From the IMG/VR virus record IMGVR_UViG_3300027793_000005: a stretch of 20,000 nucleotides of DNA, one strand, 5' to 3'. The notes beneath the pieces were generated by a model. It was not told the origin of the DNA. It worked only from the letters and a program-made list of their open reading frames with translations, and searched no databases. Shown here in pieces: positions 1-19,120 of this stretch. The stretch comes from an uncultured virus (IMG/VR IMGVR_UViG_3300027793_000005). Its lineage: Duplodnaviria; Heunggongvirae; Uroviricota; Caudoviricetes. Within the stretch, counting starts at the first letter, position 1; each line of letters starts with the position of its first letter. The position numbers and the translations under genes were made by a program.

Positions 1-990
1 TCGATTTCCGGCACGTACTCCAGACTCGTAAGTTGGTTCGCCATACGGCTGGCGACAGTCGCGTACACGTTCATCAAGTCAGACTCGTAGCCCTTATAGC
101 CGTCACGCTTGCGGTACAACTGCCGCACAGACGAAGCCGGGATCTGATCAAGGTACATCTCATACAGCGCCCGCTTGACTGCTTCAGGGGCGTTGCGGCT
201 CTTGAGGTCATCAAGCACACGGTTGAAGAACGTGCCCGGCCCGTTGTTCTGGAAGAAGTCCTCGACGCGGGCGAACATCTGCTCGCTACCGCGCATCGCC
301 CCATTGGCTACCGCTTCCTTCCAAGCGAGTTCACGCTCGTAGTTGGACTTGAACGACTGCACCACAGTCTCGTTGTTGGCGTCCTGATACCGAAGCCAGT
401 AATCCCCCTCACGGTAGAGCGGCAGGTAGACCCGCAGGCGCTTCTTCGCCATCTCACGCTGCAAGCGGTTGGCCTCACGCGGGGACAAGTTTTTGGAGAT
501 GAGCGTCAAGTATTCATCGGCCATCCCCTTGTAACTCGCCAGCATCTCCCAGTACATCTTCTGGAGATCAGTAGGCAGGCGGTTGAACCGCTGAGTCAAG
601 GGGTGACTAGCGAACTTCTGGTTGTTGAACTCGACCTGCAAGCGCGTCGATTCATGGGCGATCTCGTAGAAATCATCTTTGTGCTTGATGTGCTTCTTGA
701 TGACGTCGTTCCACTTGCGGATGTTGCGATCGAGGCCCTCCTTCCTGTCCTTCAAGGCGCTGGCACGGACGTTCAGCACGTTGAGCAGGCCCTTCAGGGT
801 GGGCAGTTCCTTGGCGAACATCTGCACGTGCTGGGGGAGCGAGGTGAACATGTACAACGCCGACCGCATGGCGTCCGTGATACGGGTCGAGTCCAACGCA
901 GCGCGTACAGCGATATAGGTCTTGTTGTTGAACCTAGGCTGACTGTTGATGGCAGCGCCGACGTTGTTGAGCGCCGCACGGCCCGCACGG
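1..990 (-). other. C-terminal helical region of the giant protein containing a PLxRFG-like motif
   Basis: YLPLYREGDYW at 396-428 resembles the Y-x-P-L-x-R-(F)-G-x-Y signature of the PLxRFG domain of phage polyvalent proteins. The surrounding sequence is helical and K/R/E rich. Confidence 0.6.
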
Positions 991-3900
991 CGAGACTGCC
1001 TTATGTCATTGGCTTTGGGGCTGAACTTGCCGCTGTTACCGATGGCAGACTTGACCTGATTAGGCTCATAGACAGCGAGGTTTTTAGCCTCGACGCGATC
1101 CCCTAATTGGGGTGAAAACATGCTTTCCAGCACATAAAAGCCGTCATGGCCGATCTTTTTGATCGCCTTTTGCACTGTCGGGTTCTCGATAGTGCGCCAA
1201 TCCCCGTCTTTAATAGCCGAAACCATCTCGTCCCAGTTAAGAAAGTCTCCGGTGGCCCTGACATTCCCCCCTGATTTGTCAAACTCTTCAGCAAGAGCGG
1301 CCTCAAGTGCTGCAATATGCTGCTGATTTTCGTAGTCAAACGGGTTCTTGGCGTTGACGTACACCGCGTAAATAGGGCCTACGTCGTAATCGTACTCATC
1401 AACCGTAAAGCGGTCAGCAAAATACGGATCAGGTGACAAGAAAATAGCCTTTGCACGCCCACCGGGCCGGAACACCGAAAACACTTTCGGGGAGCCGTGA
1501 TACATGATGATGGGGCGACCCTCTTCGTCCACCACCTTGGACCCACTGAACCAATCCCAGAAGTTCTTCAACCCTTCGATGCTCGGGAAAATAGGACGCG
1601 GACCCTTGAACCCCATAGCCTCCTTGATCATGGAAGCCGCCATAGTATCGTTAGGCGTGCCTAGTCCATCGAGGAAGTCCTTGACCGCCTGTGAAGGCAG
1701 GAACTCGGGGCGTTTGCCCGTGAGGTAGGCTGCAATCCGCTTCAGTTTGGCAGCGAGAGTTGAGAAGAACTTCTCTACGACAGACAGCGGCTTCTCGCTG
1801 GTCGTCATCCACTTGGCTACGTTGTCCGCGAACCACTCCGCAAACGACTTGAAGTACTCTTGGTCTTTCTCGCTAAGCACCATGTCTTCGGACAGGTCCG
1901 ACAAATCGGCTTCCGCCGTTGCCCATGCACGTACTTTGCGGATCAACTTGGCGGTGGTCTCACCCTCGTTCTCGGAAAGCCATGCCAGATAGTCATTGAA
2001 GATGGCGTTCCGCGTCTTCTCGTCCGCGTTGCTGAGCGCTTCGTATTCGACGATATGCCCAAGTTCATGCCCGATGTTTTCGAGCAAAACATTTATTTCC
2101 GTGTTTGAATCCACGAACAAGGCGTAGCCCTGCCCGTTAGGAAGGGGCATAACAGCGCCAAACGTATTCGGGCTTGTCGCGTCCGTCACCAGCCCTTCGA
2201 CACTGAATCCGTCATACAAGCCGTACTTGTCTGCGGTAGCGGTCAACGCCTCCGGGGTGGCCAACTCGACTTTGTCAAGCACGATGATGTTGGTGTTCCC
2301 AAGCCCGATCTGACTGACGATGGACTTGATGAACCCGTCAACACGGGGACTAAAGCGCGGGCTGACGACCACCTTGCTTTTACCAAACGGTCCTTTACGC
2401 CCACGCGGAGTCCCCCTCGCGGCGAGACGTTTGGCAACACGATCGGCCACCTCTTTCTTCTGCTCCGTCGTCGGAGCGCTAGGACGGCGTTGGGCTTGAG
2501 GAGCATTTCTGTCGCGCTCAGTTTTTCTCGGCAAGCCCGGAACATCAGGTGCAGGCGAGGCCTCTACTTTTTGCGTAACGCTCGCTTCAGGTGCGGTGTA
2601 CTTGACCGTCATCTGCGGGGGCGGGATGAACTTATCGAGCGCACCCACCTCGTCCGGAACCACGCCTACGCGGGCACCCCCACTGTAATTCGGTACGATG
2701 TAATTGTTCCAGTTATCGACGCCGACGTTGATGCAGCCATATGAGACCTTGTTGTCCGTCGCGTCAGCAGAAGCCAGCCGCTCAAGACGGCGCTCCTTGA
2801 TGTCCCCTGTATATACCTGATGGATCGCCATCGAACCTCGGTTGCCCTGCGCGTCTTGAAAAAACAGTGCAAGCCCGAAGTTCTTCTCTGGCCTTAGTAC
2901 AGCGGTGTAGTCACCAGCGGGAGTGATCTTCTCGTTGTCGAGAGTCTGATCGATCTCCTGCCCGGTCATCTGCTGGCCTATCGGGTGCGACAGCACATCC
3001 CCCGCAGCCTTGCCGTATAGCGCGGGGAAGAACTTGATCAACTCCCCGTCCGCTTTGAAGAGGAAGATCTGCCCCGTAGGCTTGTCTGCGATGATGAACG
3101 GAATACCCTTGTTGTCCAACATGAACCGCTCATACGTAGCGCGGGCAGCGGGGGACATGGCCTCTGCCGCTTCAGCCGGGGGGGCGGGTTTGTCGGCCTC
3201 AACCGTAGTCACCGTGGACTTCGTAGTCACGAACGTGGGCTTCGCGTTCAAGTTCATGAACGCGGAGTTGTTGAACACCGCACCCGTCGAGAGCAGTCCA
3301 ACTATGATCGCACGGACGATGCCACGCAGGCGGGCACGAACAGACGTGATGCCTTGGTTGACACCCTTGATGACTTCTTCAAGGAAACCTTTCTTGGCAG
3401 CGTCGTTGTACGAGTCCTGCCCGAACTCCTTGGCGATAACACCTTTTTGGGTCTCGCTAAGCCGATCGTGGACGAGGCTCTGCTCGGACTCAGATAGGGT
3501 CTGGGTCGGGGCTTCTTGGGCAGGCTCGACAGCGGTGGGTGCTTCCGTCAGTGCAGGCTCGCCGCGTCCTTCTCGTTCAGCAGCCCGTTCAGCAGCAGGT
3601 GCAGTACCCCCCACTCCTCCGACTGAAGGTTCCGCAGCACCGAGTCCTTCGGCGGCATCTCGCTGTACAGACAGATCAGGGCTTCCTGCAACTGCTCCAG
3701 AGACAACTTGCTCAGCACTGGTTGATACGGGTTCACTTGTAGTCTCCGTGGTGGGAGTGGTGGGTGTCGCAGCAGGCGTCTCCGGGGCTTTGCGAGTGAA
3801 CACCACGGACCCGTCAGGATTGTCGGTGCGCGTGAACTCCTGCTGGAGAACCCTGCGAATCAGCCAACGCAGCCCCTTAATGTCTCTCTTCGGGTTCTTG

Positions 3901-6125
3901 AAAGTGATGCTCTCGACAGCCCTCGGGGCGAAGATGTCGCTGCGGTACTCGACTCCGCCGATGACGCCAGTCCCCGGTTTCGGGTTGAGTTCGCCGCTCA
4001 CGGAGTTGGGGCGGAACCGAACCATCACGCCCTTGTTGTTACCCTGCCCGATCGCCAAGTCGGGGTCATCGGTGACGAACCCGCCGATATGTGAGAACTG
4101 TTTGTCCGAGATGAGCAGGTCGAGCAAGTTGTCCGCAGAGGTCTCGCGGAACAGCGGCTTGCCCTCCGCGATCACGTTTGGGATTATGACCGTGGGGCCA
4201 AAAGGGATTCTCTGGATCGAGTCAACGCGTGGGAACATCTCCTCTACTTTCGCCCCAGCGGGCGCAGGGACCATCTCCGGGGGCTTAGGTTCGGCAACTT
4301 TTTCTTCCGCTAGAGCAGTCTCTACCGCAACCTCTTGCTCGGCCTCGACCGTCTCCGTTGCCTTCGGCGCGAGCAATTTGAATCTGTCACCTGCCTTGCC
4401 ATAACGCTCAACGATGCCTTCGTCCACGAAGCCACGCATGACAGCAGCGGCCTTGGGCTGGTTCAGCCCGGTAGCCTCAGAGATCGCCTTGATGGTCGGC
4501 CTGACCTTGATGGCTTCAAGCGCCAAAGCACGTACGTCCGGCGTGGGAGCAGGAGCCGGGGCAGGAGCAGCGGGTTCCTCACTCAACAACTCCTGCTGAA
4601 CCGGGCGGTCAGCAAACGGCTTGACGGGGGCCGGGGCGGGAGCCGGAGCGGGAGTAGTTGAAGTTGCAACTGAAGGTGTAGTTGCAACCTGAATGTTCGG
4701 GGCCGGAGCAGGGGGAGCAGGGGGAGCCGGAGCCACCGTGACTTCCCCGTTCATGCGCTGCATGAAGTTCTTGTGAAAGACGTCAAGCCGCGTAGTCAGG
4801 TTGTCGTAAGTCCGCGACAGATCAGCAGAGAAAGCCTCTACAGACACGTTCCGCGCCGCCGCTTGAGCCGCAAGTTCCTCCGGGCTGAACAGAAGCGATG
4901 CCAGTTGTTCTTGTACCTGCTCCATCTGATCAATCTCTTCATAGACTTGATCATCTGTCAGGTTCATAGGCTCTTTGCGCAGAGCCTCCGGAGCATCTTC
5001 AGCCACAATTCTCGGCGGAGCATTGAGTAAGTCCTGTGCGGACTCGATCGGCTTGGGAGGCGGTGGGGGCGTAGACGCTTCTTCGGTCTCGCGCTGCTCA
5101 AGATCGCCCGGATCCAGCGGGACGGATTCCGGTCTAGCAGGCCCCATAGCGCCAAGCCCACCACCCAAGATCGCACCGGCAGCGCCTTCAAGAGTGGCCG
5201 CGCCCGCCACTCCACGGAACGTGGGGACGTCAAACCCCTCACGCTGCAAGGCGACGTTTTCGGCAAACTGTTCTTGACCTGCCTGAAGCGCCTCGGGACC
5301 GGCTTCCTTAGCCGCGCTCATCGCTGTACGCCGGATCAATCCTTGCTGAGCAGCCTCTTCCGCTGCCTTCCCCGCCGCTGCACGGCCTAGAATCCTGTTG
5401 GCCACAGCCTTTTCAAGCCCCGTCCCGGCTGCGAGGATGCCAAGCCCAGAGCCTGCCAGTATCAGATCGAGGTTCTTGCCACCGTACTCTTGCGCCTGCT
5501 GAGCGGTGCGTTCAGCCTGTTCTTCCGTAGCGCCAGTCTCAAGCAGCGTCTGCTTGGTGGCGTCATAAATAGAACTCTTGATGGTTCCCGCACCAGTCAA
5601 CGCACCGATAGTCGGCACTGCTACAAGACGCAGCACTCCACCAGCCAGACCGCCGATGATGGTAGGCACCGCCGTGCCCGCTGCCTGCGAAAGAGTATCA
5701 AGCGGAGCAGTAGCAAGCGCTTTAAGGCCTCCAACGACCTGTGCGCCGATACCTTTATCTTCCGCATCTTTCATGATGCGGGCGACTTCAGCCTGATCTT
5801 GCTTGGACTGGGCGCTCAGTAGCCCCTGCAAATAGTCTTCAACGCTACGAATATTCTGAGAGACAGGATTATCCGCACCGAACGCATCGGTGATAAAGCG
5901 GACACCCTGCGCAATACCTGTACCAAACTTGACCGGAACATCGGCTACGCTGCGGAAAACAGACTGTTCTTCAGGGGTAGGCTCCGGCGCAAACCCGATC
6001 TTCCCGGCAAAATCATCGAAAGGGATATCACTGTAGTACGCACGATGCAGCCCCTCCGCAAGTTGTTGATCGGTCAGATCTTGATACTGCGGATACTGTT
6101 TGCGGATTTCAGCGATAGTAGGCAC
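1..6125 (-). CDS. Giant polyvalent phage protein (>2041 aa, truncated at the window edge); probable virion-packaged, ejected protein
   Basis: Hand translation from GTG at 6125 gives MPTIAEIRKQYPQYQDLTDQQLAEGLHRAYYSDIPF... and stays in one frame to ...QLTSLEYVPEI at position 3. The frame was checked at 4140-4154, 2733-2822, 2055-2069, 1491-1505 and 396-428. An internal stop would have produced an ORF call in the track, and none is listed. Motifs: AIH...SYGCINV, HELGH...EWFAD, WFSGSKVVDEEGRPIIMYHGS...NQVKSAIGN, YLPLYREGDY. It follows three ejection-type genes. Confidence 0.9.
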   Translation of the reverse strand, partial: MPTIAEIRKQYPQYQDLTDQQLAEGLHRAYYSDIPFDDFAGKIGFAPEPTPEEQSVFRSVADVPVKFGTGIAQGVRFITDAFGADNPVSQNIRSVEDYLQGLLSAQSKQDQAEVARIMKDAEDKGIGAQVVGGLKALATAPLDTLSQAAGTAVPTIIGGLAGGVLRLVAVPTIGALTGAGTIKSSIYDATKQTLLETGATEEQAERTAQQAQEYGGKNLDLILAGSGLGILAAGTGLEKAVANRILGRAAAGKAAEEAAQQGLIRRTAMSAAKEAGPEALQAGQEQFAENVALQREGFDVPTFRGVAGAATLEGAAGAILGGGLGAMGPARPESVPLDPGDLEQRETEEASTPPPPPKPIESAQDLLNAPPRIVAEDAPEALRKEPMNLTDDQVYEEIDQMEQVQEQLASLLFSPEELAAQAAARNVSVEAFSADLSRTYDNLTTRLDVFHKNFMQRMNGEVTVAPAPPAPPAPAPNIQVATTPSVATSTTPAPAPAPAPVKPFADRPVQQELLSEEPAAPAPAPAPTPDVRALALEAIKVRPTIKAISEATGLNQPKAAAVMRGFVDEGIVERYGKAGDRFKLLAPKATETVEAEQEVAVETALAEEKVAEPKPPEMVPAPAGAKVEEMFPRVDSIQRIPFGPTVIIPNVIAEGKPLFRETSADNLLDLLISDKQFSHIGGFVTDDPDLAIGQGNNKGVMVRFRPNSVSGELNPKPGTGVIGGVEYRSDIFAPRAVESITFKNPKRDIKGLRWLIRRVLQQEFTRTDNPDGSVVFTRKAPETPAATPTTPTTETTSEPVSTSAEQVVSGAVAGSPDLSVQRDAAEGLGAAEPSVGGVGGTAPAAERAAEREGRGEPALTEAPTAVEPAQEAPTQTLSESEQSLVHDRLSETQKGVIAKEFGQDSYNDAAKKGFLEEVIKGVNQGITSVRARLRGIVRAIIVGLLSTGAVFNNSAFMNLNAKPTFVTTKSTVTTVEADKPAPPAEAAEAMSPAARATYERFMLDNKGIPFIIADKPTGQIFLFKADGELIKFFPALYGKAAGDVLSHPIGQQMTGQEIDQTLDNEKITPAGDYTAVLRPEKNFGLALFFQDAQGNRGSMAIHQVYTGDIKERRLERLASADATDNKVSYGCINVGVDNWNNYIVPNYSGGARVGVVPDEVGALDKFIPPPQMTVKYTAPEASVTQKVEASPAPDVPGLPRKTERDRNAPQAQRRPSAPTTEQKKEVADRVAKRLAARGTPRGRKGPFGKSKVVVSPRFSPRVDGFIKSIVSQIGLGNTNIIVLDKVELATPEALTATADKYGLYDGFSVEGLVTDATSPNTFGAVMPLPNGQGYALFVDSNTEINVLLENIGHELGHIVEYEALSNADEKTRNAIFNDYLAWLSENEGETTAKLIRKVRAWATAEADLSDLSEDMVLSEKDQEYFKSFAEWFADNVAKWMTTSEKPLSVVEKFFSTLAAKLKRIAAYLTGKRPEFLPSQAVKDFLDGLGTPNDTMAASMIKEAMGFKGPRPIFPSIEGLKNFWDWFSGSKVVDEEGRPIIMYHGSPKVFSVFRPGGRAKAIFLSPDPYFADRFTVDEYDYDVGPIYAVYVNAKNPFDYENQQHIAALEAALAEEFDKSGGNVRATGDFLNWDEMVSAIKDGDWRTIENPTVQKAIKKIGHDGFYVLESMFSPQLGDRVEAKNLAVYEPNQVKSAIGNSGKFSPKANDIRQSRRAGRAALNNVGAAINSQPRFNNKTYIAVRAALDSTRITDAMRSALYMFTSLPQHVQMFAKELPTLKGLLNVLNVRASALKDRKEGLDRNIRKWNDVIKKHIKHKDDFYEIAHESTRLQVEFNNQKFASHPLTQRFNRLPTDLQKMYWEMLASYKGMADEYLTLISKNLSPREANRLQREMAKKRLRVYLPLYREGDYWLRYQDANNETVVQSFKSNYERELAWKEAVANGAMRGSEQMFARVEDFFQNNGPGTFFNRVLDDLKSRNAPEAVKRALYEMYLDQIPASSVRQLYRKRDGYKGYESDLMNVYATVASRMANQLTSLEYVPEI
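999..1565 (-). other. ADP-ribosyltransferase domain (ART-PolyVal type) within the giant protein
   Basis: FWDWFSGSKVVDEEGRPIIMYHGS (His at 1497-1499), AIFLSPDPYFADRF, IYAVYVNAKNPFDY, GHDGFYV and NLAVYEPNQVKSAIGNSGKFSPKANDIR follow the motif order characteristic of ART-PolyVal. Confidence 0.85.
1650..2340 (-). other. Zincin-like metallopeptidase domain (MPTase type of polyvalent proteins) within the giant protein
   Basis: GHELGHIV (HExxH at 2055-2069) is preceded by beta strands (GAVMPLPNGQGYALFVD) and followed by EWFAD (1824-1838), a candidate third zinc ligand. The later VVEKFFSTLAAKLKRI amphipathic helix is typical of these domains. Confidence 0.75.
2655..3160 (-). other. YkuD-family L,D-transpeptidase-like catalytic domain within the giant protein
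   Basis: DNKGIPFIIADKPTGQIFLF...PALYG...TPAG...AIHQV...KERRLERLAS...DNKVSYGCINV...VGVVPD. The catalytic His (2820-2822) and Cys (2733-2735) are present in the YkuD H...S-x-G-C-I motif. Confidence 0.85.
3790..4250 (-). other. Compact globular domain between Pro/Ala/Thr linkers; possible divergent ADP-ribosyltransferase fold
   Basis: LFRET (4140-4154), FVTDDPDLA (4053-4079), GVMVRF and GVEY (Glu at 3948-3950) mirror the ART order of strand 1 (R), strand 2 plus helix, strand 3 and catalytic E. Confidence 0.4.
4371..4538 (-). other. Winged helix-turn-helix-like domain within the giant protein
   Basis: DVRALALEAIKVRPTIKAISEATGLNQPKAAAVMRGFVDEGIVERYGKAGDRFKLL has three helices with a TIKAISEATGL HTH turn, then GIV and a beta wing. 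It is flanked by PAPAPA linkers. Confidence 0.55.
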
Positions 6126-6131
6126 GGGGTA

Positions 6132-7745
6132 TTACCGAATACCGAGCGGATCAGTCAAAGACGTGGTAGCAGTAACGGGCGCTCCGCCTGCTCTGGTCAA
6201 TTGGTCGCGCTCACGTTCAACACCAGCGAGTTCTCTACGGGCATCGTCATATGCTGCTTTTTCTGTTGGACTAAGATCAAACCCCCGAAGGCTGTTTATA
6301 TACTCAGTCAAGGAATCAGCCCTGTTTTTCAACACAGCAAGCCTGTTCTTCACCTCGGTCTCAGGAGTGATCGCGCCCGGCGTGGGCTTCATGCCTGCTA
6401 GGTCGGCACGGGAGGCTGCACCGATTTCGGCAGCACGGATAGTGGCCCCAGCACTTCTACGCGAGTTCTCTACGGTGGCAGCAATCTGCGCGTAGTCCAC
6501 CTTCAACTTGTCTTCATGTTGCTGACGCTGAAGCATCTCAGTACGCGCCTGCTGGGCGATCTGCATAGCGCTCTTGAAATCGCCTTCCTTCTCAAGTTCT
6601 TCTGCCTCGCGCAGTTTAAGCATGGACTCCTTAAGCCCACGACGGTTGGCATCCATCTCTTTCTGGATACCGCGAAGCGCCTGAGTGCCAGACATAGCAC
6701 CCTCAGCCAACGCGCCCAAGAAAGTAGCACCCGGACGTGACGCGGCAGCGGCCATCTTGAACCCCGCCTCAGCAAACGCCATCATGCGGTCGCGCCCAAA
6801 CTGTTCAGTCAGTTTGTTGTTCTCGTCAGACAAGAACTGCCGCATCTCCTGCCGCGCAGCCCCAAGCCCTTCACGCTTACGAAACGCCTGAATCCGATCG
6901 TACTCACGGCTTTCCATGTCCTCGCGGGTCGGCTCGGCCGCAGCCTTTGTTGCAGGAGGAGTAGAAGCCATGCGGGTGCTGGTAGCAGTCTCGCGGCGAG
7001 GAACAAAAGCGCCGTCCCCCTGTTCCACAGGAGAAGCAGAAACTGCGGGGCTTTCCTGTGCTCGCTCAGTGGCAAGCCGATCATCTTGTGCCTTTTCAAG
7101 CGGATTCTGCGGTCCGCGTTTAAGAGCAGTTGTAGAGAACGGACTAGTGCTTTCAGGCGCAGGACTAAGCGCGGAAGCAGGAGCCACGCCACGGGATTTC
7201 AGTACTTGCAACGACCTATATGCCTGCTTATAAGCGGGTTCAAATTGCTTCAAAACCTGCTGCTTCTGCTCAGAAGAAAGCGAACCAAAGTTAGGCATCT
7301 GCTTGCGCACGAAAGATATGATGTCGGTCGTATCAGTCATGAAGTCCGGCACTTTGGCCCGCAAGTCGTCGTTGAATTCGTAGGAGACCGTACCACCGCC
7401 GTCAAACGCCACGATGCCGCCGCCTGCGAACTGAGCCTGCTCCATAGCCGGAGCGGGCATGCCACCAAGCCCCTGCTGCATCGCCATCTGCTGCTGACGC
7501 TGCTGAGCCTCAGCCATGTTCAACTGATCACGGATGGTGGGCGGGGTCTGCGGAGCCTGCACGGGCTGCTGCTTCAGACGCTGGAATTGGTTCATCATGG
7601 CGTATAGGTCCGCCATAGGAGCCACGCCCTGCGTAGCCATGCTCTTGACATACGCAATCGCCTGATCCGGCGGCATACCCTTCGACATCGCCTGCTGGAG
7701 CGAAGCCATCATGGCCCGCCCGGTACCGCTGACTGGACCGATCAT
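6132..7745 (-). CDS. Probable phage ejection / DNA-transfer protein (537 aa, coiled-coil, Gln/Ala/Met rich)
   Basis: SD GGAGGT upstream and an ATGA overlap with the 442-aa gene. Contains an FAGGGIVAFDGGG motif, a hydrophobic MMAFAEAGFKMAAAASRPGATFLGALAEGA segment and long charged coiled coils. It lies between the tail genes and the giant protein. Confidence 0.6.
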   Translation of the reverse strand: MIGPVSGTGRAMMASLQQAMSKGMPPDQAIAYVKSMATQGVAPMADLYAMMNQFQRLKQQPVQAPQTPPTIRDQLNMAEAQQRQQQMAMQQGLGGMPAPAMEQAQFAGGGIVAFDGGGTVSYEFNDDLRAKVPDFMTDTTDIISFVRKQMPNFGSLSSEQKQQVLKQFEPAYKQAYRSLQVLKSRGVAPASALSPAPESTSPFSTTALKRGPQNPLEKAQDDRLATERAQESPAVSASPVEQGDGAFVPRRETATSTRMASTPPATKAAAEPTREDMESREYDRIQAFRKREGLGAARQEMRQFLSDENNKLTEQFGRDRMMAFAEAGFKMAAAASRPGATFLGALAEGAMSGTQALRGIQKEMDANRRGLKESMLKLREAEELEKEGDFKSAMQIAQQARTEMLQRQQHEDKLKVDYAQIAATVENSRRSAGATIRAAEIGAASRADLAGMKPTPGAITPETEVKNRLAVLKNRADSLTEYINSLRGFDLSPTEKAAYDDARRELAGVERERDQLTRAGGAPVTATTSLTDPLGIR

Positions 7746-9070
7746 CGCCCACCTCCGCCGCCAAGGCCACCGAAGAGACTACCAAGCCCCAATCCTACAC
7801 CTGCGATCTGTCCAAACAAACTCCCCGGCTGCTGATAGAGCGTCTGGGTCTGGTTGCCTGCCGGGATGCCCCGCAGGATGCCCATGCCGAACTCGGCCTG
7901 CTTGTACGGGAACTGCTGGGCGTTGATGAAGTCCTGCAACTGCTGATTAAGCAACTGCTGTTCCATCGCCTGCATCTGGCCACCCGCACCCATCTGAGCC
8001 TGATTGATCCCGAGGCCCTGCTGGTGCTGCATCTGCCCCAACTGACCCAACTGGCCGGACGCCGCCAACTGCTGCTGGAGACCCTGAAGGCCAAGCCCTG
8101 CCCCGAACTGCCGGGACTGCTCACCCAACTGTGCCCCTGCAAGGCCGTACTGCGCTCTCTGGGCGGCGTTCTGGAGGCCGAACTGATTGGCTTGAGCAAG
8201 TTGCCCGAGCCGCTGCTGCTGCGCCTGAAGTTGCGCCGCTTGGTTCAACTGCCCCGACTGCATGCCGAGGTTGGCACCCAACTGCTGCTGGTTGAGCAGG
8301 GCCTGAAGGTTAGTCTGCCCCGTTTGCATCCCGGCCTGCTGATTGGCCAACTGCGCCTGCATCTGAGCCGCACGATCAGCCCCGAATTGCTGCGTGGCCT
8401 GTTGGTATGCCTGCTGAAGCCCGGTCGATTCGATGTCCGCTAGACGGTCAGACAGACTACGCTGTGCCTCAGACTGCATGAGAGCGTGGCGGGTGCCGCC
8501 CAACGCGCCATACTTGGACGCCGTTGACCCCATGCCGGGAAGTTGCCGCATGAAGTCCCGGACAGCACCCTTCTTCTGCGACTCGATCACGCCGCTCATG
8601 TACGGCGACATGTACTCCTGCATGGCACCAAGACCGAACCGCTCAGCCCCGACCCGCTCAGGGCCACCCATCTGGAACCGCTCAAGCGACGGAGCGCCGA
8701 CCCGCTCGAAATCGACCTGCCCCTCACGGAAACTCGGGTCTTGGTAGAACTGCTGGTTCCCCATAGGGGAGTACTGCCCGAGTTCGCCCGCCCGCCGTCC
8801 AGCCAGCCCCGCAAGACCCGAAGCCTCACCGATCTGGGGAGCGACCTGCATCCCGGCGACACCTTCCATCGCCTGCTTCTGGAGCGGGTTGAACCCAGCA
8901 ACGGTCTGACCGCCGTAGCGCTGGTAGCCTTCACCGATGAGGCCCGGCACCCACTGGCCCGTGTCCGGGTCCATGTTGCCAAAGACGTTACCCAGCAAGT
9001 ACTGGGCATACGGCTCCGCGTACTTCGGGATGCTGGAAGTGATCTGTGTCTGTTCAGTAGGAGATGCCAT
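7742..9070 (-). CDS. Probable phage DNA-ejection / pilot-type protein (442 aa, Gln/Gly/Ala-rich coiled coil, hydrophobic Gly-rich C-terminus)
   Basis: SD GAGGA upstream. N-terminus MASPTEQTQITSSIPKYAEPY, extensive Q/G/A/L helical repeats, and C-terminal SLFGQIAGVGLGLGSLFGGLGGGGGR. Composition and position match podovirus DNA-transfer proteins. Confidence 0.65.
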   Translation of the reverse strand: MASPTEQTQITSSIPKYAEPYAQYLLGNVFGNMDPDTGQWVPGLIGEGYQRYGGQTVAGFNPLQKQAMEGVAGMQVAPQIGEASGLAGLAGRRAGELGQYSPMGNQQFYQDPSFREGQVDFERVGAPSLERFQMGGPERVGAERFGLGAMQEYMSPYMSGVIESQKKGAVRDFMRQLPGMGSTASKYGALGGTRHALMQSEAQRSLSDRLADIESTGLQQAYQQATQQFGADRAAQMQAQLANQQAGMQTGQTNLQALLNQQQLGANLGMQSGQLNQAAQLQAQQQRLGQLAQANQFGLQNAAQRAQYGLAGAQLGEQSRQFGAGLGLQGLQQQLAASGQLGQLGQMQHQQGLGINQAQMGAGGQMQAMEQQLLNQQLQDFINAQQFPYKQAEFGMGILRGIPAGNQTQTLYQQPGSLFGQIAGVGLGLGSLFGGLGGGGGR

Positions 9071-13186: not shown

Positions 13187-15477
13187 CAGCGTCTCCCGTC
13201 AGGGCGCACATCGAGGCGCATCATGCCCAACTGCCACGCCACCCCAAGGTCGGTCGAGTCGATCCGGAAGGCCATCTGACGCCCCCTCACCCGCGTGTAG
13301 ACCTGCCCGGTGTACTGCTGGATCGGCACCGTGGAGGTGCGCGTGACGGTGGGCTGATCGGCGCTGGAGTAGTTGACACCCGAGTTTTGGCGCGGACGCA
13401 CGGTCATCGTGACACTCGGGGTGCCTGCCACGGAACCGGTAAACGTCAGGTCAGGCAGCATTCTCCAGACATATCCGAAATTGTGTCCGTCTTGGATGTC
13501 GAAGTCCGAAGTCTCGACGTACGCAGCGATCGGTACAGGAGTAGGGAGCGATTGGTCATCCGTGCCCACTTCGTGGAGCATGGCCTGATTCGGCACCGTA
13601 TAGGTGACAGCCGTGTAGATGGTGTGGGACGCCGCAGTCGTGCCTTCTGCGCCTCGCGTACATCCGGTGAGGGTATTGCCCGACTTGCCCGTGTAGGTGA
13701 TCTTCTCAGACTCGATCAGCACCGTGCCTGCATCAGGATAGGTCGAAGCATCGATGAGCGCGATGGACGCAATCGAGGAATTGACGTCCGTGGTCAGGAA
13801 CGAGTTCTGGACGCTGAACGCGGCGATCGGATTGTTGCGCTGTGAATGCTCAGACCACGCGGTCCGGTTGATGGTGCCGTAGTACCAGATCCGCTCAAGG
13901 TAGTTGTAGATGACGTAGCGGTCGTTCGTCGTGCTGTTGGCAGAGGGGTAGAACCACCAGACTTCGTTGAAGCCCTCATTGGCACCCGCGACGACCTGCT
14001 CGATCTGGTCGTAGTTGATGTCGCTGAAGACATACTGACGCAGGGTGCAGGGGAGAGTCTCAACGCGGCCCGAGTAGACGAAGAACTTGTCCCGCCCCAT
14101 CCAGTAGACGACGTTGTTGACCGTGATGACAGAGTCCTGCGAGGCCACCGACACGTCTTGGTCAAGCAGGGTAAAACTCCAGACGAACGGAGCGCCGACG
14201 TACTGCATCGAGAAGAGCGCCGTGTCCGACCAGACAAGGATCTCCTGACGGGTGTGCAACGCCGTGACAAGGTAAGAGCCGTGCGAGAGTTTCTGCTCGC
14301 CCGACTGGTTCGTGACTTCCGGCACCCACTCAAACCCGTTCGCTTGGTCCGACCACCGCACAAGAAGCGGCTCAAATGAAGTGTTGAACGAAGTCGGGTC
14401 ATACGGCGTCGAGCCGATGGCGATCACGAAGTCGTTCGTGGGCGAGTTGATGATCATGTTGACTTCGTTCGGGACGTGCCGCCCAGCGTAACTGAACGAG
14501 ACATCCGCTCCCGTGCCCGAGGCCGTCGTAGCCACCGAGATCGGTACCGAAGTGCTGCCGTCCCACGCTGTCGTGACATACGCCCCCGCCGGGATGCCAG
14601 TACCCGACACAACGGCTCCGGTAGTGATGCCAAGCGTGTCGGCCACGGTGATCGTGGTAGCGCCCGAGGAGAAGTTGGCGGTCGTAGAGACCTTGGTGAT
14701 GGTGTTGGCCTTCTCTTCAAGCGTGGTCGCTCTGGGCCAAGTCGAGACGTTCGTCGTCCAGTAGTAGATCTCACCACTGCGCTCAGCGAACATCAGATCA
14801 TCAGCGTAGTTGAACATCGACCAGAGTCGCATCGGGACGCCGGAACCCGTCGCGGAACCCCACCCGCCTGCGCCCCACGGAGGAGCGCCCCAGCCGACCG
14901 TGCTGGTGTAGATCGCGTTGCCCGCGTCGATGTCGAAGGTCGCAACGGCAGATGAGCCGCCGCCCGTGGTGGTCGCATTGGCAGCGGTCGGAGAGTAGAT
15001 GACGATCGAATTGGCGTTCGGGGTTGCCTGCACCTCGTACTCGCCATTCAAGGTCAAGCCAGCAACAGCAGTCGCGCCCGAGAAGGTCACGTAGGTGCCG
15101 ATCGTCGTGTTGTGCCCGGTCACCGTGACGGTGACAGCCTTGCTCCCGTTGGTCGTGGCGAAAGGAGCAGCGCCGAGTGAGATCGTGCTGCCAAGCGGGG
15201 TGATGTCATGGTACTCACCGCCCAGTTCGACGTAGACCTTCTGGTTGGTACCGAGACCAAGAAGGTTCTGGTTGACCGAGGTGATCCAGTTCCAGATGTT
15301 ACGGCAGATACCCTTGAAGGTACTGTTGTTGGAGTTGATACTCTGCCAGCCACCGATCTTCTCAGGGAAGCCCGAACGGAAGCGCACCTTGTCGGTGGCG
15401 TAGTAGCCACCTTCGTTGGCGTAGGTCGTGGACTCGCGGTTTACGCCGGGTCGCAACTCAAGTTTTTGGAGGGGCAT
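13186..15477 (-). CDS. Phage tail nozzle / head-tail stabilisation protein (P22 gp10 / T7 gp12-like beta-propeller), 763 aa
   Basis: MPLQKLELRPGVNRE...KIGGW N-terminus, LLVRWSDQ, VYWMGRDKFFVYSG, FNEVWWFYPS...RYVIYNY...WYYG and C-terminal RVRGRQMAFRI...WQLGMMRLDVRPDGRR. Aromatic-rich repeated beta blades. It sits directly before the ejection genes. Confidence 0.7.
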   Translation of the reverse strand: MPLQKLELRPGVNRESTTYANEGGYYATDKVRFRSGFPEKIGGWQSINSNNSTFKGICRNIWNWITSVNQNLLGLGTNQKVYVELGGEYHDITPLGSTISLGAAPFATTNGSKAVTVTVTGHNTTIGTYVTFSGATAVAGLTLNGEYEVQATPNANSIVIYSPTAANATTTGGGSSAVATFDIDAGNAIYTSTVGWGAPPWGAGGWGSATGSGVPMRLWSMFNYADDLMFAERSGEIYYWTTNVSTWPRATTLEEKANTITKVSTTANFSSGATTITVADTLGITTGAVVSGTGIPAGAYVTTAWDGSTSVPISVATTASGTGADVSFSYAGRHVPNEVNMIINSPTNDFVIAIGSTPYDPTSFNTSFEPLLVRWSDQANGFEWVPEVTNQSGEQKLSHGSYLVTALHTRQEILVWSDTALFSMQYVGAPFVWSFTLLDQDVSVASQDSVITVNNVVYWMGRDKFFVYSGRVETLPCTLRQYVFSDINYDQIEQVVAGANEGFNEVWWFYPSANSTTNDRYVIYNYLERIWYYGTINRTAWSEHSQRNNPIAAFSVQNSFLTTDVNSSIASIALIDASTYPDAGTVLIESEKITYTGKSGNTLTGCTRGAEGTTAASHTIYTAVTYTVPNQAMLHEVGTDDQSLPTPVPIAAYVETSDFDIQDGHNFGYVWRMLPDLTFTGSVAGTPSVTMTVRPRQNSGVNYSSADQPTVTRTSTVPIQQYTGQVYTRVRGRQMAFRIDSTDLGVAWQLGMMRLDVRPDGRR

Positions 15478-15841
15478 CCGTCACTCTCCGCCATTCGGGC
15501 TTGCCGATTCCACGCGAGAAGTGCGGGGTGTCCACCAACTTGACCCCGTTGCCGCCCCATGAGTTCAAGGGATTCAGAGATTCCCAGTACCGTCCAAGTG
15601 GGGCGAGGACGGCCTTATCGTAGCACAACTTGCCATCCTTGAAGAAGTTCAAGTCGATGGCCCTGCGGCTCAGGTGCAGCGAGTTCATGGTCTTGCTGCG
15701 ACCAGCCTTGACATGGATCTGCTGCTGTTCTGCGGTACGGAACAGTTCACCGCCCGTGACCACGAAGCCGAGTTCGATCGCCTTCTGGATGAGTTTGCAG
15801 GCGTCGGACAGGAAGTCAGCCTGCTCCTGAACGTTGCTCAC
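15458..15841 (-). CDS. Endolysin, peptidase M15 family (Peptidase_M15_4-like, zinc LAS peptidase), 127 aa
   Basis: FRTAEQQ (Arg), SLHLSRRAIDL (S-x-H-x6-D), WGG and DTPHF (D-x-x-H). GTG start overlapping the holin stop (GTGA). Confidence 0.85.
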   Translation of the reverse strand: MSNVQEQADFLSDACKLIQKAIELGFVVTGGELFRTAEQQQIHVKAGRSKTMNSLHLSRRAIDLNFFKDGKLCYDKAVLAPLGRYWESLNPLNSWGGNGVKLVDTPHFSRGIGKPEWRRVTDAPPKT

Positions 15842-16383
15842 TTCAGCACCCCCTTCAGCATGTCATCCTTGGCCTTGCTGCCAGCCGAGGAGCCGAAGTA
15901 GTACGAGATGACCTGCGTGGCGACCGTGGACAGCACACCGAGGACGTAGATGAGGATGTCCTTGCGCGACGGGTCCACCGGGGCGTTGTCGAACATGACC
16001 ACGCCGAACAGGAAGAAGGTCATGCCAAGAAGGGTCAGCGCGAGAACGGGGGTCACAATCTTGTTGAGCAAAGGTGCTTTGTCAGAGGTGGAGATTTGTA
16101 CCTCTCGTTCCCGCGCTGAATCTGTGTCCTTGAGCCGAAGTTCAAATTCGGCAAGGTCGAGTTTGTTCTCTTCGATGCGAAGCCGCAGCAGTTCCTCCTC
16201 ATGCTCCATCTCGGCAGTCTTGAGACGGATGATGTCATCAGCCGACATGTCGGGCTTGAGTTCGACTCCCAACTTCTCCTCAACCGCCTTCTTGCCCTTA
16301 GCGAGGACAGCGTTGGCGACGAGGGTGAGACCGTTCGCAAGGAGCGGCTTCAGGATAGGTGCAAGTGCTGCGGGGATGCCCAT
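15838..16383 (-). CDS. Holin-like membrane protein (3TM / GTA-holin type), 181 aa
   Basis: ATG at 16383 with SD AAGGAGG. Hydrophobic N-terminus, charged coiled coil, two TM segments (IVTPVLALTLLGMTFFLFGVVMF; ILIYVLGVLSTVATQVISYYF) and FGSSAGSKAKD end. Immediately upstream of the endolysin. Confidence 0.7.
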   Translation of the reverse strand: MGIPAALAPILKPLLANGLTLVANAVLAKGKKAVEEKLGVELKPDMSADDIIRLKTAEMEHEEELLRLRIEENKLDLAEFELRLKDTDSAREREVQISTSDKAPLLNKIVTPVLALTLLGMTFFLFGVVMFDNAPVDPSRKDILIYVLGVLSTVATQVISYYFGSSAGSKAKDDMLKGVLK

Positions 16384-16544
16384 CACTCAGCCTCCTTGTC
16401 CTTCTTCAGTTCGACCACCTGCGGCTCTGCCTGAGCGCGGATGTTCATAAGCAGGGGGTAGAGTCCTGCCTTCGTCGGCATTTCACCGAGAATCGAAACG
16501 ATGGCGTTGACTTCATCGAGGGTCAGTTTGAGGGTGAGTTCCAT
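16383..16544 (-). CDS. Small hypothetical protein (53 aa), not in the ORF track; possible tail-fibre accessory or chaperone
   Basis: MELTLKLTLDEVNAIVSILGEMPTKAGLYPLLMNIRAQAEPQVVELKKDKEAE*. SD AAGGAG 6 nt before the ATG. It fills the gap between tail fibre and holin exactly, with a TGATG overlap. Confidence 0.8.
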   Translation of the reverse strand: MELTLKLTLDEVNAIVSILGEMPTKAGLYPLLMNIRAQAEPQVVELKKDKEAE

Positions 16545-18268: not shown

Positions 18269-19120
18269 TCAAGTAACGATATCAGTCCAGTTCGCACTCT
18301 GAGAAGTTGAGACAGGGTTCCAGTTCGGGGTCTGTGCAGTACCTACGGCGGTCCAGTTCGGGGTCTGTGCAGTACCTACAGCGGTCCAGTTCGGGGTCTG
18401 TGCAGTACCTACAGCGGTCCAGTTCGGGGTCTGTGCGGTGTCGATTATACCCCAGACGTTGGCCAAATTTACCACACCGAGGGCAGATACCCCATTCAGC
18501 AGGACGGTCACATCCGAATAGTACGAAACCGTACCGATCGCCCCCGTGGCAGACACCCCGGTGACCGAGACATCTATGCCAATCGCGACCGTTTCGTCGC
18601 CAAGGGCAGTGGTACCAACCACCCCCGTAACCGGGACATTGGCCACTCCGATGACCGCGACCGTGCCGATCGATCCCGTGGCAGACACTCCGGTCGGGGT
18701 GACCGTGGTCTGGGTGATGACCGTCTCGTTGCCGAGGGCCGTCGTGCCAACCACCCCGGTGACGTTGACCGTGGCACTGATGGAGACCGTCTCGTCTCCA
18801 AGGGCTGTAGTACCCACCACCCCGGTGACCGGGATGACAGCGTTGGTCAGGACAGTTACAGACCCCAGCAGGCCACTTGCCGCAACCCCGGAGACGAAGA
18901 TGATGACATCGCCGCCTGTCTGGACGGTGACGGATCCAAGGGTCGTCGTGCCGACCACCCCGGTGACGGGGAAGACCATGTCCGTGAGGACAGTCTCGCT
19001 CCCGAGGATGGCTGACGCAGAGAGTCCTGTGACCGAGACAGTGACCGTCCCGGCCTGTATGTCGAATGCCGAAGTTGAGAACGCCGACGTCGAAAACGCC
19101 GACGTCGAGAAAGAACTCAC
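18269..19120 (-). CDS. Thr/Val/Gly-rich repetitive phage structural protein (283 aa)
   Basis: GTG start overlapping the upstream TGA. N-terminal STSAF repeats, many V(T/S)GV(V/S)(G/A)T(T/G)A(L/I)G repeats, and C-terminal TAQTPNW repeats. Confidence 0.7.
   Translation of the reverse strand: MSSFSTSAFSTSAFSTSAFDIQAGTVTVSVTGLSASAILGSETVLTDMVFPVTGVVGTTTLGSVTVQTGGDVIIFVSGVAASGLLGSVTVLTNAVIPVTGVVGTTALGDETVSISATVNVTGVVGTTALGNETVITQTTVTPTGVSATGSIGTVAVIGVANVPVTGVVGTTALGDETVAIGIDVSVTGVSATGAIGTVSYYSDVTVLLNGVSALGVVNLANVWGIIDTAQTPNWTAVGTAQTPNWTAVGTAQTPNWTAVGTAQTPNWNPVSTSQSANWTDIVT
18319..18436. repeat. 33-bp in-frame tandem repeat (about 3.6 copies) encoding TAVGTAQTPNW
   Basis: tccagttcggggtctgtgcagtacctac(g/a)gcgg starts at 18319, 18352 and 18385, with a partial copy at 18418. 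The full copies differ at one base. Confidence 0.95.

What the first reader, a model, noticed from the sequence alone, without database searches (positions are those of the whole stretch)
2655..3160. YkuD L,D-transpeptidase-type domain with intact His/Cys embedded in a phage ejection-type protein
Seen: PFIIADK...PALYG...TPAG...AIH-x25-SYGCINV, with a longer than canonical His-to-Cys spacing (H-x28-C) containing ERRLERLAS. Known: virion-associated peptidoglycan enzymes are usually lytic transglycosylases, lysozymes or peptidases (e.g. T7 gp16). The YkuD family (PF03734) includes 3-3 crosslinkers, protein-to-peptidoglycan anchoring enzymes and hydrolytic members (E. coli DpaA/LdtF, H. pylori Csd6). 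From memory, the sequence resembles a stand-alone proteobacterial YkuD subfamily with the same insert. Inference: the phage captured a host Ldt and may use it to cut L,D-linkages or outer-membrane tethers during entry, to anchor its ejection channel covalently to peptidoglycan, or to reseal the wall after entry.
Basis: partly seen in the sequence, partly recalled or inferred. Interest (0 to 1): 0.85.

Follow-up and report, generated by a model that had tools for sequence, protein, structure and literature searches.

The report
Phage-injected cell-wall anchoring-type enzyme
A giant protein that this phage probably injects with its DNA carries an optional, intact cysteine enzyme for the bacterial cell wall, and the enzyme's bacterial relatives sit beside proteins sharing an apparently undescribed tail tag, which suggests a new way of fastening proteins to the wall.

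Summary
Confirmed. Residues ~986-1172 of a 2607-aa polyvalent/PLxRFG protein form a YkuD fold (pLDDT 95.7; Z 12.8 against 3.4 for unrelated folds). His1102 and Cys1131 are invariant in 182 of 182 rows, and Cys1131 is the protein's only cysteine. The scan noted such domains before on other phage DNA. (1) The domain is an optional, mobile cassette: 10 of 120 nearest scaffolds carry it. (2) A four-helix domain ending in a signal-peptide-like helix precedes it (113 of 134 giants, 10 of 665 controls), which would place the enzyme in the periplasm. (3) Its stand-alone bacterial sister clade lies beside genes for lipoproteins, OmpA or TpsA adhesins ending in [KR]xxRN (57 of 76; 30 of 44 in a later set). 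This points to a dedicated protein-to-peptidoglycan anchoring system that I did not find in print. The phage has no tagged gene and lacks several residues fixed in the cellular clade, so its reaction is open: I put wall anchoring of phage protein at 0.35 and hydrolysis or detaching at 0.27. Direction of gene transfer is unresolved. No activity is shown.

The parts
3..6125 (-). Giant polyvalent / PLxRFG ('DarB-like') protein, 2041 of 2607 aa inside the window; last gene of the virion operon; probable ejection protein
   Evidence: P0003, 2607 aa; rest read in L001; NF032893, aa 1899-2592, E 2.3e-116
2610..3170 (-). YkuD-fold catalytic domain, aa 986-1172
2820..2822 (-). Catalytic His1102 codon
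   Evidence: sequence; invariant in 182 of 182 rows
2733..2735 (-). Catalytic Cys1131 codon; the only Cys of the 2607-aa protein
2748..2795 (-). Subfamily insert between His and Cys (aa 1111-1126) with invariant Arg1113 and conserved Glu1111, Arg1116, Leu1117, Asp1124; two short helices in the model
3273..3491 (-). Four-helix domain (aa 879-951), always upstream of the enzyme in full-length giants; no family found
3273..3338 (-). Signal-peptide-like end of helix 4 (aa 930-951): basic stretch, then a hydrophobic stretch; no clear AxA site in this copy
2505..2534 (-). Internal basic motif (aa 1198-1207) resembling the cellular C-terminal tag, at the 3' edge of the cassette; significance uncertain
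1716..2378 (-). Zincin-like metallopeptidase (MPTase-type) region with HExxH at aa 1353-1357; limits approximate
   Evidence: motif in sequence; family name by analogy with PMC5512222 section 8; no profile hit of its own
1023..1529 (-). ART-PolyVal ADP-ribosyltransferase domain, aa 1533-1701
   Evidence: E 3.2e-18
432..878 (-). LPD39 domain, aa 1750-1898
   Evidence: E 9.5e-7
6132..7745 (-). 537-aa upstream gene, probable second ejection protein (position only)
   Evidence: no Pfam, PHROG or NCBIfam hit
7742..9070 (-). 442-aa DNA ejection protein
   Evidence: phrog_4287, E 2.1e-8

Best explanation
The domain is an active YkuD-fold cysteine acyl-transferase, carried as an optional three-part cassette (four-helix domain ending in a signal-like helix, flexible linker, enzyme) inside a packaged and ejected polyvalent protein. 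Shown computationally: the fold, the dyad, the coupling to the helix, the mobility of the cassette, and the tagged partners of the cellular sister clade. Inferred: (1) the giant protein is packaged and ejected; (2) the helix, basic side inward, holds the enzyme on the periplasmic face of the inner membrane or routes it there once the polyprotein is cut; (3) there it works as its cellular sisters appear to, forming a covalent link between a protein and a peptidoglycan stem peptide. The likeliest protein partner is a phage polypeptide, possibly the basic linker just downstream, so that the ejected conduit is fastened to the wall. It helps infection but is not needed for entry.
For: Fold and dyad. 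Selection on the Cys: 118 of 144 giants with the domain have exactly one Cys, and 108 of 110 cassette-less relatives have none. Signal-like helix: 113 of 134 giants pass a combined charge/hydrophobicity test, against 36 of 49 N-termini of stand-alone copies and 10 of 665 control windows; 126 of 134 have net positive charge before the hydrophobic stretch. Cellular sisters lie downstream of an ORF ending [KR]xxR[NY]: 57 of 76 (pattern read off these loci; background 10 of 13,738 segments), 30 of 44 in loci fetched later, and 57 of 67 and 25 of 28 on either strand within 2.5 kb. The partners are TpsA adhesins, OmpA, Lpp/OprI-like and small proline-rich lipoproteins. Phage and cellular copies share the catalytic core and insert and group together against other YkuD proteins (SH-aLRT 98). 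Protein anchoring is the commonest specialised role of YkuD enzymes (PMC12729407 passage). Virion location of similar giants: phi24B gp47 and JC1 gp69.
Against: No ORF of this phage's roughly 64.7-kb genome ends in the tag, and the tag is near only 1 of 19 and 3 of 29 giant-protein loci. Residues fixed in the cellular clade (Arg1072, Trp1089, Asp1091, Tyr1092, Tyr1154 positions) vary in the giants, so specificity may have changed. A profile of the cellular tag scores the downstream linkers no higher than shuffles of themselves (e.g. 2.12 vs 1.80 +/- 0.35, 60 representatives); only a regex shows about two-fold enrichment, in a minority (11 of 60 vs 4.8); and [KR]xxRN itself occurs in 1 of 132 linkers. 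The signal-like helix is modelled as helix 4 of a well-folded domain and may simply be buried; AxA sites are not enriched overall (28 of 134 vs 18% of controls). The anchoring role of the cellular clade is itself an inference from gene neighbourhood. The host is unknown.
Confidence: 0.35

Rival explanations
1. Hydrolase or detacher: the enzyme reaches the periplasm and trims tetrapeptides, cuts L,D-links, or removes the host's wall-anchored lipoproteins and OmpA (a DpaA-like reverse reaction), loosening the envelope for entry or for lysis.
For: Hydrolytic members rank among the nearest folds: Bd1075 and Csd6 are Foldseek ranks 1-2; Csd6 Z 12.3 and Pgp2 Z 11.7 are tied with transpeptidases. No tagged partner in phage loci, and loss of cell-clade residues. 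Wall-acting domains in polyvalent proteins were read as breaching enzymes (PMC5512222). Tlde1 is a precedent for an injected YkuD-fold carboxypeptidase.
Against: 110 of 120 nearest scaffolds lack it and show no precomputed wall-hydrolase family in its place. At least one phage group has both the cassette and a separate tail-lysozyme gene (L110-L112, L118). Fold ranks do not separate hydrolases from transferases. The closest cellular kin look like ligases.
Confidence: 0.27
2. Post-entry wall remodelling: after injection the cassette is cut out, exported and makes 3-3 cross-links or D-amino-acid exchanges that reseal the wall or block superinfecting phages.
For: A signal-like helix with a basic n-region suits export from the cytoplasm; AxA follows it in 24 of 60 copies outside the main 'FNP' group; an HExxH peptidase lies downstream in 60 of 144 giants; the cassette is accessory.
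Against: Only 4 of 74 'FNP'-type copies have AxA, and this copy has none. 78 of 144 giants show no HExxH by my pattern. The nearest cellular clade is tied to tagged proteins, not to general cross-linking.
Confidence: 0.18
3. Not a wall enzyme in the phage, or not delivered by the virion: the Cys cuts or cross-links the polyprotein itself or another virion protein at an Arg-containing site, or acts late in infection.
For: About a third of cellular tags have no Lys (33 of 105 pattern matches, some of them chance), so the clade may cleave a protein bond; a weak G-[RK]-E motif follows the domain in 12 of 58 representatives vs 3% in shuffles.
Against: All 20 top structural matches are YkuD-fold enzymes of the peptidoglycan-acting family. 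The signal-like helix and the Cys-free scaffold point to the periplasm. No internal start codon at aa 900-945 that could give a separate late product.
Confidence: 0.12
4. Inactive passenger or chance match.
For: Pfam score under the cut-off on the whole protein; His-Cys spacing outside the canonical range; dispensable.
Against: Invariant dyad in 182 of 182 rows at 27-80% identity to the query; sole Cys kept; confident fold.
Confidence: 0.03

Closest known systems
YkuD-family L,D-transpeptidases (Pfam PF03734; PDB 4xvo, 6fj1, 1y7m)
   Same: Fold (Z up to 12.8, rmsd 1.9 A over 110 residues), His and Cys, S-x-G-C-hydrophobic motif.
   Different: 28 residues between His and Cys with an Arg-rich helical insert; Tyr/Phe for His before Gly-Cys; no sequence-level match in the PDB; embedded in a phage polyprotein.
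Protein-anchoring Ldts (E. coli LdtA/B/C for Lpp; Dickeya Ldt03/84 for OutB; Brucella, Agrobacterium and Coxiella OMP-anchoring Ldts)
   Same: The cellular sister clade is exported and paired with lipoproteins, OmpA and adhesins that share a C-terminal signature.
   Different: Known links use a C-terminal or internal Lys or an N-terminal Gly/Ala (PMC12729407 Table 1 and PMC12274547 passages). Here the conserved end is Arg-Asn, many tags lack Lys, and enzyme and partner are neighbours.
Hydrolytic YkuD members (Csd6, Pgp2, Bd1075, DpaA) and the T6SS effector Tlde1
   Same: Fold (Z 12.3, 11.7, 8.6, 9.4, 6.6); Tlde1 is also delivered into another cell's periplasm.
   Different: No sequence similarity; Tlde1 has a shorter, not longer, His-Cys spacing; single versus double access to the active site could not be judged.
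Phage polyvalent proteins (Iyer et al. 2017, PMC5512222); DarB-like/PLxRFG giants of PBC5-, Skulduggery-, Parlo- and PEp14-type podoviruses; phi24B gp47
   Same: ART-PolyVal, LPD39, HExxH peptidase and PLxRFG C-terminus; last gene of the virion operon.
   Different: The paper's main text lists lysozyme, SpoIID-like, DD-peptidase and zeta-kinase domains as wall-acting and has 0 hits for YkuD or transpeptidase (supplements not seen). No cultured phage with the cassette was found.
1,3-L,D-transpeptidase LdtGo (PDB 8qzg)
   Same: Alpha/betaproteobacterial, divergent YkuD domain.
   Different: Z 8.6 only; His245-Cys264 spacing 18; rows with a similar short spacing fell in the outgroup.

Membership tests
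YkuD / L,D-transpeptidase fold (PF03734) | Profile score above the gathering cut-off | tested here: met
   25.5 bits vs 23.4 on the excised domain; 20.2 bits (under) on the 2041-aa frame
YkuD / L,D-transpeptidase fold (PF03734) | Beta-sandwich YkuD fold | tested here: met
YkuD / L,D-transpeptidase fold (PF03734) | Conserved catalytic His and Cys | tested here: met
   182 of 182 rows
YkuD / L,D-transpeptidase fold (PF03734) | His and Cys juxtaposed in three dimensions | not testable with these tools
   No coordinates returned; secondary structure puts His at a strand end and Cys before the next short strand
Canonical L,D-transpeptidases | Motif HXX14-17[S/T]HGCh (as printed) | tested here: not met
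   H-x25-S-Y-G-C-I; spacing 27-29 in 179 of 182 rows; Tyr/Phe at the second His position in most
Canonical L,D-transpeptidases | Acyl transfer from a tetrapeptide donor; carbapenem acylation | not testable with these tools
   needs bench assay
Protein-anchoring Ldts (LdtA/B/C type) | Partner protein with an acceptor amine (C-terminal or internal Lys, N-terminal Gly/Ala) | tested here: inconclusive
   Cellular partners share [KR]xxRN but many lack Lys; the phage has no tagged ORF and only an internal look-alike
L,D-carboxypeptidases (Csd6/Pgp2/Tlde1) and DpaA | Active site open on one side only | not testable with these tools
   criterion; no coordinates available
Phage polyvalent proteins | Disparate enzyme domains with LPD, ART and MPTase in one large polypeptide | tested here: met
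Ejection (internal virion) proteins | Packaged in the virion and ejected into the envelope | not testable with these tools
   indirect only: gene order, phrog_4287 neighbour, proteomics of other giants (homology of those two to this scaffold not checked), Cys-free scaffold
Sec signal peptide | Basic n-region and hydrophobic h-region | tested here: met
   113 of 134 vs 10 of 665 controls by a simple in-house score, not SignalP
Sec signal peptide | N-terminal position and AxA cleavage site | tested here: not met
   internal at aa 930-951; no start codon at aa 900-945; AxA in 28 of 134, none in this copy

The most novel reading that the evidence does not exclude
This subfamily is a sortase-like system of Gram-negative bacteria. 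The YkuD-fold Cys attacks the Arg-Asn bond at the C-terminus of a dedicated partner (adhesin, OmpA, lipoprotein) and transfers the protein onto mDAP, the reverse of known Ldt chemistry. Podoviruses use the same enzyme in cis: an internal signal-like helix sets it in the periplasm and it welds the phage's own ejected protein to the host wall during DNA entry.
Probability: 0.15. Interest if true: 0.92.

Novelty: new variant of a known kind. Interest (0 to 1): 0.74.

Why it matters
Virion wall enzymes are thought of as cutters. A widespread cassette whose nearest kin look like protein-to-wall ligases raises the possibility that some podoviruses build on the host wall during entry, and it gives a 190-residue domain that can be assayed. 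The internal signal-like helix suggests how one injected polyprotein serves both cytoplasm (ART) and periplasm (YkuD). Apart from the phage, the [KR]xxRN tag with its neighbouring enzyme would be a new protein-sorting signal of proteobacteria and other diderms, tethering two-partner adhesins, OmpA and lipoproteins to peptidoglycan. It is directly testable and could serve as a wall-display tool.

Tried and rejected
Sequence and profile searches of the PDB found nothing relevant for the domain or the whole protein. Cultured phages: only 35-38-residue matches in 4 Stenotrophomonas phage records and none for a second cassette. Internal translation start before the signal-like helix: no ATG/GTG/TTG at aa 900-945 here and no shared start with a ribosome-binding site in 29 viral loci; rejected. 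YkuD as a stand-in for a lytic transglycosylase in the same scaffold: cassette-less relatives list no wall hydrolase among precomputed families; not supported. The four-helix domain has no atlas, Pfam or convincing fold match (best Z 5.8; it was not folded alone). A likeness to the MPTase C-terminal helices was weak in the HMM search and absent in profile comparison (probability 1.4%). A family-wide in-cis RN tag was rejected (1 of 132), and the tag profile did not beat shuffles. A genome-wide DNA pattern for the tag in 5 genomes gave no more hits than its reversed control and was uninformative. Complex prediction of the domain with aa 1176-1207 gave no answer (score 0.01, mark 0.32) and is evidence neither way. 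Direction of transfer: the rooted tree nests the cellular clade among giants, but the constrained tree is as good. NCBIfam names neither the enzyme nor the tag. Literature: no paper held 'polyvalent proteins', 'phage' and 'transpeptidase' together; searches listed nothing on a virion YkuD or this tag (listings only, top 15-20 rows each); tag strings hit only unrelated papers among the 15 of 47 listed. Supplements of PMC5512222 could not be read and may list the domain. No whole genome was held for the window; its remainder was read from an overlapping record.
Full report
Setting. The finding lies on the - strand in an ORF that starts at 6125 and runs off the window. The full protein is 2607 aa (its end was read in L001). 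The window and an overlapping record, identical over 3,968 and 29 bases at the two ends, add up to about 64.7 kb. That record holds terminase, portal, major head protein, DNA polymerase and helicase genes. The giant gene closes the virion operon, two genes after a 'DNA ejection protein' (phrog_4287). It carries ART-PolyVal and LPD39, an HExxH motif at aa 1353-1357 and a PLxRFG domain. Its C-terminal third matches giant 'DarB-like' proteins in 53 cultured phage records, 23-27% identical in the 30 listed. It is thus a phage polyvalent protein. That it is packaged and ejected is inferred. phi24B gp47 (LPD38) was found in virions and proposed as an ejection protein (passages), and JC1 gp69 gave 51 peptides in virions (passages); I did not test their homology to this scaffold.

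Observation. The motifs are as described. Pfam YkuD passes its cut-off only on the excised domain (25.5 vs 23.4 bits; 20.2 on the long frame). The model is confident (pLDDT 95.7), and the 20 best of 48,161 chains are all YkuD-fold proteins (Z 12.8-6.6, next 3.4; Foldseek agrees). Transpeptidases and carboxypeptidases are tied at the top, so the fold does not give the reaction. His1102 and Cys1131 are present in all 182 aligned rows, with 28 residues between them in 163. Cys1131 is the only cysteine in 2607 residues. 118 of 144 giants with the domain have exactly one Cys, and 108 of 110 related giants without it have none. The dyad is therefore under selection in a scaffold that otherwise avoids cysteine. 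The His-Cys distance could not be measured.

Spread. 855 cluster representatives match at E <= 0.001, of which the best 150 were listed. Of 181 proteins held at that point, 110 are at least 1000 aa, 66 at most 420 aa and 5 in between. In viral contigs 30 of 34 matches lie in ORFs over 1300 aa; in the best 80 of 598 GTDB matches none lies in an ORF over 901 aa. The GTDB copies are mostly Burkholderiales, Sphingomonadales, Lysobacterales, Caulobacterales and Syntrophobacterales. No cultured phage with the full domain was found.

An optional, mobile cassette. Of the 120 listed nearest relatives of the C-terminal scaffold (of 323), 10 carry the domain, this protein included; a few of the other 110 are N-terminally incomplete. 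Full-length relatives 63-74% identical over aa ~1200-2605 lack aa ~860-1200, while P0006 is 70% identical over aa 861-1201 but only 41% in the C-terminus. Copies 71-79% identical to this domain sit in LPD38 rather than LPD39 scaffolds. The enzyme is therefore not required for entry, and it moves between scaffolds as a unit.

A signal-like helix. About 60 residues before the enzyme, the giants share a basic stretch followed by a hydrophobic one. The best 15-residue hydropathy reached 1.6 in 95 of 134 distinct giants, against 5 of 133 and 2 of 134 in flanking windows. A combined test passed 113 of 134 giants, 36 of 49 N-termini of stand-alone copies (positive control) and 10 of 665 control windows. 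It ends a four-helix domain (aa 879-951, pLDDT above 90) joined to the enzyme by a disordered linker. A profile of this domain hits 144 of the 148 long proteins (circular, as it was built from them), none of 110 cassette-less relatives, and all 22 giants fetched later, some of them near-copies of earlier rows. Against a true signal peptide: it is internal, there is no start codon at aa 900-945, AxA is not enriched overall (28 of 134 vs 18%; 24 of 60 outside the main group, 4 of 74 inside), and the helix may be buried in its domain. If it enters the inner membrane, the positive-inside rule (established knowledge) puts the enzyme in the periplasm.

The cellular sisters have tagged partners. The gene upstream of the stand-alone copies often encodes a protein ending in a proline-rich stretch and [KR]-x-x-R-N. 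Counted on the same loci, 57 of 76 genes with at least 700 bases upstream have such an ORF within 900 bases, against 10 of 13,738 other segments, five of which look like true tags nearby. With the pattern fixed, metagenome loci fetched later gave 30 of 44. On either strand within 2.5 kb the counts are 57 of 67 and 25 of 28 loci, against 1 of 19 and 3 of 29 for giant-protein loci. The partners are unrelated envelope proteins: TpsA adhesins behind a TpsB-like gene, OmpA proteins, Lpp/OprI-like and small proline-rich lipoproteins. A shared tail on unrelated exported proteins beside a periplasmic YkuD enzyme is what a dedicated anchoring system would look like; this is inference. 33 of 105 distinct pattern matches have no Lys in the last eight residues, a few being chance matches. 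A Lys acceptor as in Lpp therefore cannot be general, and cleavage at Arg-Asn with transfer to mDAP is an open possibility. The table of known Ldt attachments in a 2025 review lists no such tag (PMC12729407, section 4 part 1 and passages), NCBIfam names none, and searches (listings only) and passages of PMC13721041 and PMC12274547 showed none.

What carries over to the phage. Giants and cellular copies share Asp1014-Lys1015, Gly1038, Asp1043, the TPAG motif, His1102, Arg1113, Arg1116, Asp1124, the GCIN motif and Pro1157. Positions fixed in the cellular clade (1072, 1089, 1091, 1092, 1154) vary in the giants (135 and 84 rows). No ORF of this genome ends in the tag. This protein has an internal look-alike at aa 1199-1204, at the cassette's edge, with one of the highest scores (10.9). 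Over 60 representatives, however, the tag profile did not beat shuffles; only the pattern [KR].[DE]R was enriched (11 of 60 vs 4.8; 0 of 200 shuffles as high). An in-cis partner is thus a lead for some lineages, not a family property.

Origin. The subfamily groups against 13 other YkuD domains (SH-aLRT 98), and the main cellular clade is one group (100) that the rooted tree nests among giants (96 rows). The tree holding the giants together is as good (p-AU 0.53). Capture from a host is not shown.

Mechanism and rivals. I favour an active, periplasm-directed acyl-transferase that links a phage polypeptide to peptidoglycan after ejection (0.35). The rivals are hydrolysis or detaching of host tethers (0.27), post-entry remodelling (0.18), a non-wall role (0.12) and inactivity (0.03). 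That it is an active YkuD-fold enzyme acting on the host wall in some way I put at about 0.8.

Novelty. The fold and the polyvalent proteins are known. The main text of the polyvalent-protein paper has no hit for YkuD or transpeptidase (PMC5512222: passages and section 8; supplements not seen), and one search found no paper joining the terms. Other papers seen as passages only: PMC10864386, PMC9638812, PMC9024508 and bioRxiv 2020.02.18.954545. Structure databases hold such proteins under generic names, and this scan noted the domain before in other phages. The signal-like cassette and the tagged-partner system were not among the scan's notes returned. I rate it a new variant of a known kind, with interest 0.74; much of that rests on the cellular tag system and on the cassette anatomy.

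Noticed in passing
L007-L086, L160-L221 (e.g. L036:1100-4558 +, L014:5098-5739 +, L022:4597-5448 +): Unrelated envelope proteins ending in [KR]xxRN lie next to the stand-alone enzyme, often as TpsB-TpsA-enzyme operons or in convergent pairs; a candidate new protein-sorting system that deserves its own study.
   Followed up: yes
L039, L084, L165, L166, L168, L172, L195, L203: Many cellular loci hold a second, adjacent paralogue of the enzyme, several with GCVV in place of GCIN; could be a partner or a reverse-reaction enzyme.
   Followed up: no
L121:3821-4171 (Stenotrophomonas phage DLP5 gene 121; also Summit and DLP3): A 116-aa stand-alone, shortened member with His, insert and Cys follows a predicted membrane-protein gene in cultured phages; a possible bench model.
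   Followed up: partly
P0169, P0175, P0304: Short homologues with Trp where Gly is conserved, suggesting organisms that read TGA as Gly; no signal peptide seen.
   Followed up: no
P0107/P0303 and P0048: Stand-alone variants outside the main cellular clade: one with an N-terminal region resembling a peptidoglycan-binding repeat (by eye), one with two tandem domains, the first lacking the His and Cys.
   Followed up: no
P0170 aa 1313-1383: A second copy of the four-helix domain without the hydrophobic tail, followed by LPD23 instead of YkuD.
   Followed up: partly
L087, L108, L162, L164 and related proteins: A W-G-x-D motif 30-45 residues after the enzyme in 7 of 58 representatives (0.1% in shuffles), unexplained.
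   Followed up: no
window 15458-16386 (-): M15 peptidase endolysin-like gene and a 182-aa two-helix membrane protein inside the tail gene cluster.
   Followed up: no
window 18269-19120 (-): 283-aa protein with ~35-residue Val/Thr-rich repeats and a four-fold 11-residue C-terminal repeat.
   Followed up: no
window 4383-4529 (-): Weak winged-HTH matches at aa 533-581 of the giant protein (E 0.04-0.2); relatives list FtsK_gamma.
   Followed up: no
P0311-P0313: One assembly of this phage has the giant gene in three pieces, broken upstream of the cassette near proline-rich stretches; assembly error or frameshift not decided.
   Followed up: partly
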